DNA of 63,996 bases, filler included, from Collodictyon triciliatum (lineage: Eukaryota): the NCBI GenBank assembly GCA_043381765.1. It is 20 parts of 20 records of this genome, joined end to end, with 100 filler letters (N's around TTAATTAATTAA, not from the genome) between each part and the next. Parts side by side here need not be neighbours in the genome. Positions count along the whole stretch, not along the records: positions 23,711 to 26,979 come from JBHJMP010007547.1; 19 more parts are not named here. The stretch is one strand, 5' to 3'. The position numbers and the translations under genes are program-made. This document shows, piece by piece, positions 24,331 through 26,480 of this stretch; position 1 is the first letter of the stretch; every line of letters starts with the position of its first letter. Under the pieces are notes generated by a model. It worked only from the letters and a program-made list of their open reading frames with translations, did no database searches and was not told the origin of the DNA.

Positions 24331-26480
24331 CTAATCAGAAGATGGGGCCATTCTCCCAGAGCGTGTTAAATTCCTCCATTTATCCTTTAGGTCAACCGCT
24401 GTGTATAATTAATATAAATAAAAAGGAAAGCAATAACTTAAATAATTCGATACAGATGCTCGGTACCAGAAAACGGAACGGGTAGAATAAGACTTATAAA
24501 TAGATATCACATTTTTCTATTTTTTTTTTTACCTCGTCGGTCGTTGAATGAAAAGCTTGAGAGGATTTTGGCCCAGTTTCCAATTCCATAGCTCTTTACT
24601 CCTGCAATAGGGTAAAGAGAATGTACATCACTTGAAGTGTCAAGCATTACAATCAAGGTAAAAGAGCGAGATTAGAACTGGACATATTCAGTTGACTTAA
24701 TTCGGCTGTATGGTTCCAAACAGCACGAAATCACGAACCTGCTATCAAGTTACTCTCTTCTTCCTCAGTCCAATAGCGTCTTTCATTTATCCTTCTTGGC
24801 GCTGAATGTAAATCGAAATTTAATTGAATATTTTTTCTTTTCTTTTCGTACTATCAACGCAAATACATTGAAATCAACTAATGAAGAAAATATCAAGAGG
24901 ATTAAGCCACGTGTTGAAATATTAGCGTCCAGTTGCTCTGTCCATTCAACACGAACGGCTGAGGGATGAGGGTCGGCCATTTTTCTAATTTTCACAGAGT
25001 CTGTGAAAGGATGTTTAAACAAAACATAGACGATTTAAAACCCAGTAAACCATTTGCTCCAAAGAACCAAATATAGTGATTAAGTTGTTTCGTACAAATT
25101 AAAGGGCACACGCGAATGCATTCATATATTTCCCTTTTCATTTTTAGAAAGCAAAGCTCACGTCTTTCCAGTGATGGTGATTGTCCTCCGGGCTCGCTAT
25201 CCTTTCTTTTCTTCGGTCTGAAACATGATTCACGCGGTTAGATTGTATTCGATGAATTCTCTCGGACTTTTCCACTCTCTCATTCAAGTATCTATCACTA
25301 ATGCTTCTGAGAAATATGGTATGATTTGATAAATGAAATGCATACACGAAGCGCTCAGTTGAGGAGAGCCATACTTTCATAATACCTTGAAATCTCTAAA
25401 AAAAAGCAATTGCCGTATTATGGAATTTACATATCAAGACAAGTTGGTACACATGCCAGAAAAATCAACTTGCGATGTAATATAATATGTCCTTATTTCT
25501 TACTTGTTCAGGATTTTCAGCCTTTATTTTGAATTGTTTAACATATTCATTCGCTTGAAGAATAGTTGCCTTAGCCTCATTGTAAGAAACTATATGGATT
25601 GAACATTATATATTGTGACGGCAAAAAAGGCAACAAATATATGAAACAATGTAAAATCAACTATGAGTTATATTTTACTTTGAATCGAATAAAGGAAAAA
25701 AAAACTATGAGTTATATTTCAACATTAATCATTACAATGGTGATGTCTAACCATAGATTTCGTTAGCTCATCCAGAATAATCCTATGTTAGTTGACACAC
25801 AATTTCAATAATAATGAAAAAATAAAACGAGGAGAGAAAGTAAGAGGGATTAAAAAAAAATAAGTGAATAAATGAAAAATAAAAAAGGAGGACGCTATCA
25901 ATTATAGAGTTAATTACACAGGGTATTTGGTTCGATGGGAGAGCTTGTGATTTCCATGATTTTTTTCAAGCTATTACAATTAGGATGATTAATGATATAC
26001 TATACATGCACAAAATGAGATATGTAGCCTACGAGTTCGAGGTATGGTTCCTCCACACGTATCATTCTCTGTTGCAATTTCTCGATTTGCCCACGAAAAT
26101 ATCTCTCAAAGTTTTCTAAAGAGTATTTCTCAAGCAGCTCAGCAATAGTAGAATCTGTGGAGGATGTGGCACTTTTCAAGAAATTGATGAGGTCTTCCCT
26201 CCTCCTGGCGAGTTCATTTATGGTGACTTGGTCTTCCATCGTTTGTGGAAGTTCATGTATCTGTATAATGTGAAATTTCTGACTGTGTGAAGAAAACAGC
26301 AAAATGAAATGCTTATTTTTTTTGTGATGGCTCCTGTGATTTTCCTTGAAAGTAAGAGAATGAATAAATAAATCCATTTATATACAACAGTAAACAAACA
26401 GGAAAGCTCTTTTCCACTAGTTCCTGAACACCTTGAATAGAGAGAATTGGTGGGGATGACCTCAATGGTTGCAGGCAAAT
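24331..26480 (-). CDS. Telomere-repeat-binding-factor-like protein with C-terminal telobox Myb domain (5' probably partial)
   Basis: Last three exons splice to RRYWTEEEESNLIAGVKSYGIGNWAKILSSFSFNDRRAVDLKDKWRNL...*; VDLKDKWRN is the telobox signature. Upstream exons are helical. Confidence 0.85.
25659..25719 (+). mobile_element. Micro-insertion TACTTTGAATCGAATAAAGG(A)n flanked by a 17-bp direct repeat (putative TSD)
   Basis: AACTATGAGTTATATTT at 25659-25675 and 25703-25719, within an intron of the telobox gene. Confidence 0.7.

What the first reader, a model, noticed from the sequence alone, without database searches (positions are those of the whole stretch)
25659..25719. Second micro-insertion with a different 17-bp TSD, in an intron of the telobox gene
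Seen: AACTATGAGTTATATTT - TACTTTGAATCGAATAAAGGAAAAAAA - AACTATGAGTTATATTT. The duplicated flank is unrelated to that at 20439 apart from starting (A)AACT, while the insert core is identical. This is what independent insertions predict and a local tandem duplication does not. Both TSDs begin AACT(A/G)TG, hinting at target preference. Both TSD-bearing copies are antisense to the inferred host gene, so their AATAAA would not cause premature polyadenylation (inference).
Basis: partly seen in the sequence, partly recalled or inferred. Interest (0 to 1): 0.7.

Follow-up and report, generated by a model that had tools for sequence, protein, structure and literature searches.

The report
Tiny LINE-tail insertion in an intron
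This 27-base intron insert is the last 18 bases plus A-tail of an L1-like jumping gene, one of thousands of such stubs in the genome; it is ordinary in kind, but the stubs are unusually short and very often stop at the same one or two bases.

Summary
The structure is real: 17-bp duplication, 27-bp insert, 17-bp duplication, inside a spliced intron of a telobox Myb gene and antisense to it. The insert is one non-element T, the last 18 bases of an L1-like LINE, a G and an A-run. The genome holds at least 2,524 such 3' ends. Of 100 sampled, 76 keep 23 bases or fewer, 40 keep 17-18, none 24-26. At that hot spot microhomology is at chance level and extra bases are common, unlike truncated human L1 (PMC2912911): the enzyme behaves as if it met a template end. 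The AACT(A/G)TG target idea fails (0 of 121); the target is (A/T)T/A(A/T). Antisense bias was not shown. A sister LINE family also leaves stubs, with other lengths. An RNA-hairpin stop fits only weakly, and an 11-base periodicity failed replication. The scan reported these stubs many times before on other DNA of this genome; new here are the genome counts, length spectrum and junction statistics.

The parts
25659..25675 (+). Target-site duplication, upstream copy (17 bp); preceded by C, so a C/AA first-nick site
25676..25676 (+). One T not matching the parent LINE (which has C here): probable non-templated base at the 5' junction
   Evidence: sequence against L061; 'non-templated' is inference
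25677..25694 (+). Last 18 bases of the family-1 L1-like LINE, containing AATAAA
   Evidence: 18 of 18 identical to the 3' end of L061
25695..25702 (+). G plus A7 tail (two more A are shared with the duplication)
   Evidence: G-run and tail spectrum
25703..25719 (+). Target-site duplication, downstream copy
25590..25735 (-). Host intron (146 nt; 102 nt without the 44 added bases), GT..AG on the minus strand
   Evidence: spliced joint 25589-25736 in run X1; ends
24334..26680 (-). Host gene, 12 exons seen (start not defined), C-terminal Myb repeat with the telobox motif: TRF-like
   Evidence: 11 joints, open spliced frame; motif per PMC10887745; Pfam Myb on one exon only E 0.051
20439..20495 (+). 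Second family-1 stub (16 matching bases) with an 18-bp duplication, on a different contig
30676..30702 (-). Third family-1 stub (17 matching bases), no duplication found, on the same strand as the flanking coding exons
27080..27229 (+). 150-bp internal piece of the family-1 LINE at a contig edge (90.7% identity to L219)
5351..5387 (+). Stub of the sister LINE family (28 matching bases plus A-tail)

Best explanation
A dead-on-arrival, extremely 5'-truncated copy of an L1-like LINE made by target-primed reverse transcription. Shown: parent element, nested ladder of 3' ends, 15-18 bp duplications, T/A target. Inferred from L1 biochemistry: the APE endonuclease nicks at (A/T)T/A(A/T), the nick primes on the short A-tail, and the second strand is cut about 17 bases away. 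Inferred here: after about 26 bases of cDNA the enzyme meets an effective template end at base 17-18, often adds 1-3 untemplated bases and jumps to the upstream target end without needing microhomology. Identity as a LINE stub about 0.95. Template-end-like stop about 0.6. The cause I favour, weakly (about 0.35), is a block at the foot of a 3'-UTR stem-loop whose 3' strand starts at base 17-18. The insert is probably neutral to the host gene.
For: L061/L058 carries the same tail continuous with RT motifs and zf-RVT. L219, 90.5% identical over 2.2 kb, adds RVT_1 (E 3e-26) and an APE remnant (E 8e-6, just under the Pfam cut-off). The sister family's RT matches human L1 ORF2p at E 4e-21 against 8e-6 for R2. 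Counts 2,524 (10-mer + tail), 1,705 (16-mer + tail), 2,188 (16-mer), 553 (22-mer), 454 (27-mer) give per-base retention 0.94, 0.80, 0.96: a cliff between 16 and 22. 40 of 100 copies end at 17-18, about 9.5 expected under a geometric null; 0 of 20,000 simulations reached 40. Short and long copies share the G-run spectrum (52 of 76 vs 17 of 24 with one G). Hot-spot junctions: 17 blunt, 13 extra bases, 8 microhomology of 38. The predicted stem pairs bases 38:17 and 37:18.
Against: The hairpin is weak: pairing probability 0.3-0.4 in L061, about 10% of shuffles fold as well, z -0.03 over 156 nt, and copy L044 folds differently. An unguided alignment did not align the hairpins of the two families. 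Family 2 has modes at 34 and 42 and a broad 21-29 group; only 34 fits a predicted stem foot (probability 0.35), fitted after the fact. No intact full-length element, no ORF1 and no tree were obtained. The empty allele was not shown directly. Long copies are under-assembled (many sit at contig edges), which inflates the short share.
Confidence: 0.85

Rival explanations
1. Same LINE origin, but the template itself is short: a host nuclease cuts or trims LINE RNA to a protected 3' fragment of about 26 nt, which ORF2p copies to its end like a full-length RNA.
For: Blunt and extra-base junctions with chance-level microhomology are what full-length L1 shows in PMC2912911. PMC10830420 argues that host cleavage is the likelier cause of truncation because ORF2p is processive.
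Against: Ends also spread over 11-21 and 27-40, and family 2 has several modes. No small-RNA data were available; run X1 is contigs only.
Confidence: 0.3
2. Early second-strand capture set by geometry or timing: the top strand is nicked during first-strand synthesis and captured once per helical turn, whatever the RNA sequence.
For: PMC7617806 shows top-strand nicking during reverse transcription and proposes premature second-strand synthesis as the source of truncation. Family 1 clusters lie about 11 apart (17-18, 27-31) and the first family-2 sample clustered at 21-24, 32-38, 42-47.
Against: The prediction written down before new data failed in part: in 27 new family-2 copies with a duplication, 21-24 held 1, the predicted valleys 25-31 held 5 and 39-41 held 2. 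Element length plus tail is not tighter than element length alone. The two families differ in phase.
Confidence: 0.15
3. Ordinary random truncation, with selection in a compact genome removing longer copies.
For: Host introns are 62-161 nt, so long inserts would be costly. Long copies are also under-assembled.
Against: Cannot give 40 of 100 at two positions, only 6 at 12-14 and none at 24-26, nor the different spectrum of family 2 in the same genome (16 of 128 at 21 or fewer, against 75 of 100).
Confidence: 0.1
4. An independent micro-SINE of about 18 nt with its own master copy, mobilised in trans.
For: Recurrent 5' end. Insertions in trans also show less microhomology in human (PMC2912911).
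Against: No head or promoter sequence in the insert. Continuous ladder from 11 to over 2,200 bases on one 3' end. Same G-run spectrum as long copies.
Confidence: 0.05
5. Local tandem duplication or assembly artefact.
For: The assembly is fragmented and the empty allele was not seen letter by letter.
Against: The core occurs thousands of times with unrelated flanks, also in contigs of runs X1, X3 and X4.
Confidence: 0.01

Closest known systems
5'-truncated human L1 insertions (Kojima 2010, PMC2912911; abstract and 12 passages read)
   Same: APE-RT-zinc-knuckle parent, A-tail, duplications in the 7-20 nt range, T/A-type first nick, nested 3' ends.
   Different: [quoted passage not shown] Microhomology 8 of 25 junctions without extra bases, against nearly 80%. 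Extra bases 13 of 38, against 14.6%. Tail about 8 A. Target (A/T)T/A(A/T) rather than TT/AAAA. Denominators differ between the studies.
Full-length L1 insertions completed by template jumping (PMC2912911 passages; PMC10830420 passages)
   Same: Chance-level microhomology, non-templated bases, full-size duplications.
   Different: Here the apparent template end lies 17-18 bases from the tail.
Stringent-type LINEs with a 3'-UTR stem-loop bound by ORF2p: UnaL2, ZfL2, SART1, some algal and monocot L1 (PMC5135761 and PMC3472496, passages)
   Same: A bulged stem-loop is predicted just upstream of the tail in both families.
   Different: Not supported by folding statistics or covariation here; the passages read do not link such a loop to a truncation peak.
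Chlamys Penelope-like insertions in Chlamydomonas (PMC9977147, passages); SVA truncation hotspots (PMC10681720, passages)
   Same: Very short intronic 5'-truncated inserts (median 128 bp); recurrent truncation points.
   Different: Other element classes, several times longer; no two-base mode reported in the passages read (SVA Figure S9 not seen).

Membership tests
L1 superfamily LINE (parent) | Reverse transcriptase of the L1 type | tested here: met
   RVT_1 E 3.1e-26 in L219; sister-family RT closest to human L1 ORF2p among solved structures
L1 superfamily LINE (parent) | N-terminal APE endonuclease | tested here: inconclusive
   Exo_endo_phos_2 E 8.2e-6, 26.1 bits against cut-off 27.4, on a broken fragment upstream of the RT
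L1 superfamily LINE (parent) | C-terminal zinc knuckle (zf-RVT) | tested here: met
   E 1.6e-7, above cut-off
L1 superfamily LINE (parent) | ORF1 | tested here: inconclusive
   Upstream frame in L219 has no Pfam match; the contig ends there
L1 superfamily LINE (parent) | A-tail and 7-20 bp target-site duplications | tested here: met
   100 of 121 clean duplications are 15-18 bp, mode 17
L1 superfamily LINE (parent) | Pyrimidine/A first-nick preference | tested here: met
   T at -1 in 90 of 119 non-A cases, 0.347 expected; A at +1 is partly by construction
L1 superfamily LINE (parent) | Placement in the L1 versus Tx1 clade on an RT tree | not tested
   No reference set at hand
Typical 5'-truncated L1 insertion (human) | Microhomology at most 5' junctions | tested here: not met
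   8 of 25, chance about 0.26 (p 0.50), against 0.8 p 3e-7
SINE | Own RNA-derived head or promoter | tested here: not met
   All but one base of the insert is LINE 3' end or tail
SINE | Separate source population from the LINE | tested here: not met
   G-run spectrum equal in short and long copies, Fisher p 1.0; one marker only
Stringent-type LINE | Conserved 3' stem-loop | tested here: inconclusive
   Predicted but weak; cross-family likeness by eye only, not recovered by alignment
Stringent-type LINE | ORF2p binds the stem-loop | not testable with these tools
   Needs a binding or retrotransposition assay
TRF-like telobox protein (host gene) | Single C-terminal Myb repeat with LKDKWRN | tested here: met
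   Spliced frame; motif per PMC10887745
TRF-like telobox protein (host gene) | Binds telomeric DNA | not testable with these tools
   Needs a binding assay

The most novel reading that the evidence does not exclude
In this lineage the main product of L1 retrotransposition is a discrete event of about 26 nt: ORF2p, or a host enzyme acting on its RNA, sets a hard template end at the foot of the element's own 3' recognition hairpin, and the insertion is finished by end-type template jumping. The genome would be a natural record, in thousands of copies and two families, of what sets 5' truncation.
Probability: 0.3. Interest if true: 0.7.

Novelty: new variant of a known kind. Interest (0 to 1): 0.42.

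Why it matters
Why most LINE insertions are 5'-truncated is still open (PMC10830420: 'not well understood'; PMC7617806 offers premature second-strand synthesis). A family in which 40% of sampled copies stop within two bases, with end-type junctions, next to a sister family that stops elsewhere, lets polymerase block, RNA cleavage and early capture be tested against each other. In practice, over 3,500 stubs of this size would probably be missed by ordinary repeat annotation (inference) and could serve as presence/absence markers. This single insertion is unremarkable.

Tried and rejected
AACT(A/G)TG target: rejected, 0 of 121. 11-nt periodicity: suggested by 44 family-2 copies, prediction noted, not replicated in 27 new ones; those were chosen by tail length, which may bias them. 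Shared hairpin between families: seen by eye, not recovered by MAFFT; one of ten rows had wrong coordinates. Orientation: codon-based classifier right on 6 of 9 test tiles (5 of 5 with margin above 3; most 'true' strands are my own ORF reading); family 1, 85 loci: 21 vs 25, and 8 vs 16 at a higher margin (p 0.15); family 2, 67 loci: 21 vs 21 and 6 vs 9; it does not separate intronic from intergenic sites. Empty allele: no listed contig spans the site. One 151-nt contig of run X4 aligns from exactly 25703 with five letters unaligned, where a filled allele has A5 and an empty one differs; letters not shown, depth 2, so a hint only. The first guess that the family-2 tail in L217 belonged to the LINE in that contig was wrong; it has its own duplication, and the parent link came from L220. 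An unguided scan of 351 kb found 2 family-1 stubs and one A-only insert: too few to judge inserts under 10 nt. Pfam found nothing on the telobox exon alone. Literature searches listed no LINE with a modal insertion under 30 nt; the library lacks most subscription papers and no supplements were read. PMC5381506 (passages) was not informative; bioRxiv 10.1101/2023.04.05.535757 was seen as abstract and outline only.

Full report
Observation. The window holds an exact 17-bp direct repeat (25659-25675, 25703-25719) around 27 bases, as described. The window is a chain of short contigs joined by N-linkers, so the copies at 20439, 25659 and 30685 are not shown to be linked. Contigs of run X1 (RNA by guess) give 11 joints over this gene, 10 with CT..AC ends; one skips 25590-25735, which contains the insert. 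Spliced in a script, the exons give an open frame ending in a Myb repeat with LKDKWRN, the telobox motif named in PMC10887745 (two passages). 'Intron of a telobox gene, antisense' is therefore right for this copy.

What it is. The 16-base core has 2,188 exact matches in G000 against 1 for the control. Extending longer copies upstream leads without a break into a coding region with RT motifs and a zf-RVT knuckle (L058/L061). A copy 90.5% identical over 2.2 kb (L219) adds RVT_1 and an APE remnant just under the Pfam cut-off. At least 151 places match the ORF2 end. The insert is one T that the parent lacks, the parent's last 18 bases, G and A7. A scan of 351 kb of arbitrarily chosen contigs showed a second tail, with 1,016 exact 17-mers, belonging to a sister LINE (L220, 61% identity over 205 aa). 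The sister's RT is closest to human L1 ORF2p among solved structures. No tree was built, so L1 versus Tx1 is open.

Lengths. Exact counts fall 2,524 to 1,705 from 10 to 16 bases (both with tail), 2,188 to 553 from 16 to 22, and 553 to 454 from 22 to 27: per-base retention 0.94, 0.80, 0.96. I fetched the places of the first 100 matches listed and re-ran the pattern, which returned 100 distinct copies (one-to-one identity with the list not checked). Kept length: 76 at 23 or fewer, 40 at 17-18, 0 at 24-26, 16 at 27-40, 8 longer, 4 of these cut by a contig end or N. A geometric null expects 9.5 at 17-18 and never reached 40 in any two-base bin in 20,000 runs. Limits: copies under 10 bases are invisible, lengths include chance matches, and long copies are under-assembled. 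Family 2 differs: 16 of 128 at 21 or fewer, 109 at 50 or fewer, with modes at 34 and 42 among 69 with a duplication. Short and long family-1 copies share the G-run spectrum, as expected from one source RNA.

Target and junctions. From 120 family-1 hits, 68 had a duplication and 61 were kept (7 dropped for length, mismatches or evident miscalls); from 128 family-2 hits, 69 and 60. Of these 121, 100 are 15-18 bp. T precedes the duplication in 90 of 119 non-A cases (0.347 expected); positions -3, -2 and +2 are A/T-rich; A at +1 is partly forced by the method. AACT starts: 5 of 61 and 0 of 60; AACT(A/G)TG: 0 of 121. Among 38 family-1 junctions at the hot spot, 17 are blunt, 13 carry 1-4 extra bases and 8 have 1-2 bases of microhomology. 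Microhomology is at chance (8 of 25, p 0.50). Human truncated L1 has it at nearly 80% and extra bases at 14.6%, while full-length L1 is at chance (PMC2912911, abstract and passages; paper pointed out by e1-7303189). The comparison crosses species and methods.

Orientation. A weak codon-based classifier gave 21 sense and 25 antisense (family 1) and 21 and 21 (family 2). The 30685 copy lies on the same strand as its flanking exons. The ten host introns printed are all T-rich on the sense strand, so target availability alone could skew orientation (inference). The polyadenylation argument is neither shown nor excluded.

Mechanism. Nick, priming on the tail, staggered second nick and template jump follow from L1 work (PMC7617806 and PMC10830420, passages). 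What my data add is that the stop is sharp, family-specific and end-like. A predicted stem-loop has its 3' foot at bases 17-18 in family 1 and an extended foot at 34 in family 2, matching the main or one main mode. But the folds are weak (about 10% of shuffles do as well), the 42 mode and the 21-29 group of family 2 are not explained, a short terminal hairpin would fit base 17 equally well, and alignment did not confirm homology of the two loops. I put a hairpin block at about 0.35, a processed short RNA at 0.3, geometric early capture at 0.15 (its periodicity prediction failed in part) and selection alone at 0.1.

Polymorphism. Contigs of runs X3 and X4 carry the same core with other flanks that repeat on both sides, so such stubs exist outside this assembly. 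One X4 contig begins to align exactly at the second duplication, as an empty allele would, but its five unaligned letters were not shown.

Novelty. Truncated L1 copies are well known, and this scan has reported these stubs repeatedly on other DNA of the genome. Searches listed no LINE with a modal insert this short; the closest seen was a Penelope-like family with median 128 bp (PMC9977147, passages). The library is partial and unread supplements (SVA Figure S9, Kojima's additional files) may bear on this. Verdict: real, new variant of a known kind, interest 0.42.

Noticed in passing
window 3277-60734 (linkers), e.g. 20238-20337, 23611-23710, 26980-27079: The window is a chain of short contigs joined by N44-TTAATTAATTAA-N44 linkers; neighbours across a linker are not shown to be linked.
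   Followed up: yes
window 5351-5387; L220 (G000:C1491): Second LINE family with its own A-tailed stubs, 1,016 exact tail matches, modes at 34 and 42 nt, and two tail subfamilies; its stop codon lies inside the predicted hairpin.
   Followed up: yes
L221 minus 6724-6740; L219 (reverse coordinates 3164-3189); L226, L240: Nested events: a family-1 stub with its duplication inside a family-2 LINE, a stub inside a family-1 LINE between endonuclease and RT, and family-2 stubs next to what look like family-1 tails.
   Followed up: no
   Followed up: no
L079, L071: Copies about 82-84% identical to both families in different parts, possibly a third or recombinant subfamily.
   Followed up: no
L095 minus 8858: A 12-bp direct repeat around an A-run only: possible tail-only insertion.
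   Followed up: no
L044 around the tail; L084: L044 has an inverted LINE piece just behind the tail, and L084 a duplicated tail, possibly 5'-inversion or double priming events.
   Followed up: no
window 30560-33160, minus strand: Gene that looks like a Trf4/PAPD5-type non-canonical poly(A) polymerase (label recalled; Pfam gave nothing on two exons); holds the third stub, apparently in an intron and in sense.
   Followed up: partly
window 28777-29016, plus strand: Pterin-4a-carbinolamine dehydratase exon (PF01329, E 3.8e-15).
   Followed up: no
L096 and L107, contig starts: Both begin with the same 9-base tandem repeat (CCATAAAAA units), a possible satellite or telomere-like repeat; of interest beside a telobox gene.
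   Followed up: no
window 25674-25766 in run X1: Summed contig depth 590 over the core against under 20 elsewhere: many contigs of that run carry the tail motif.
   Followed up: no
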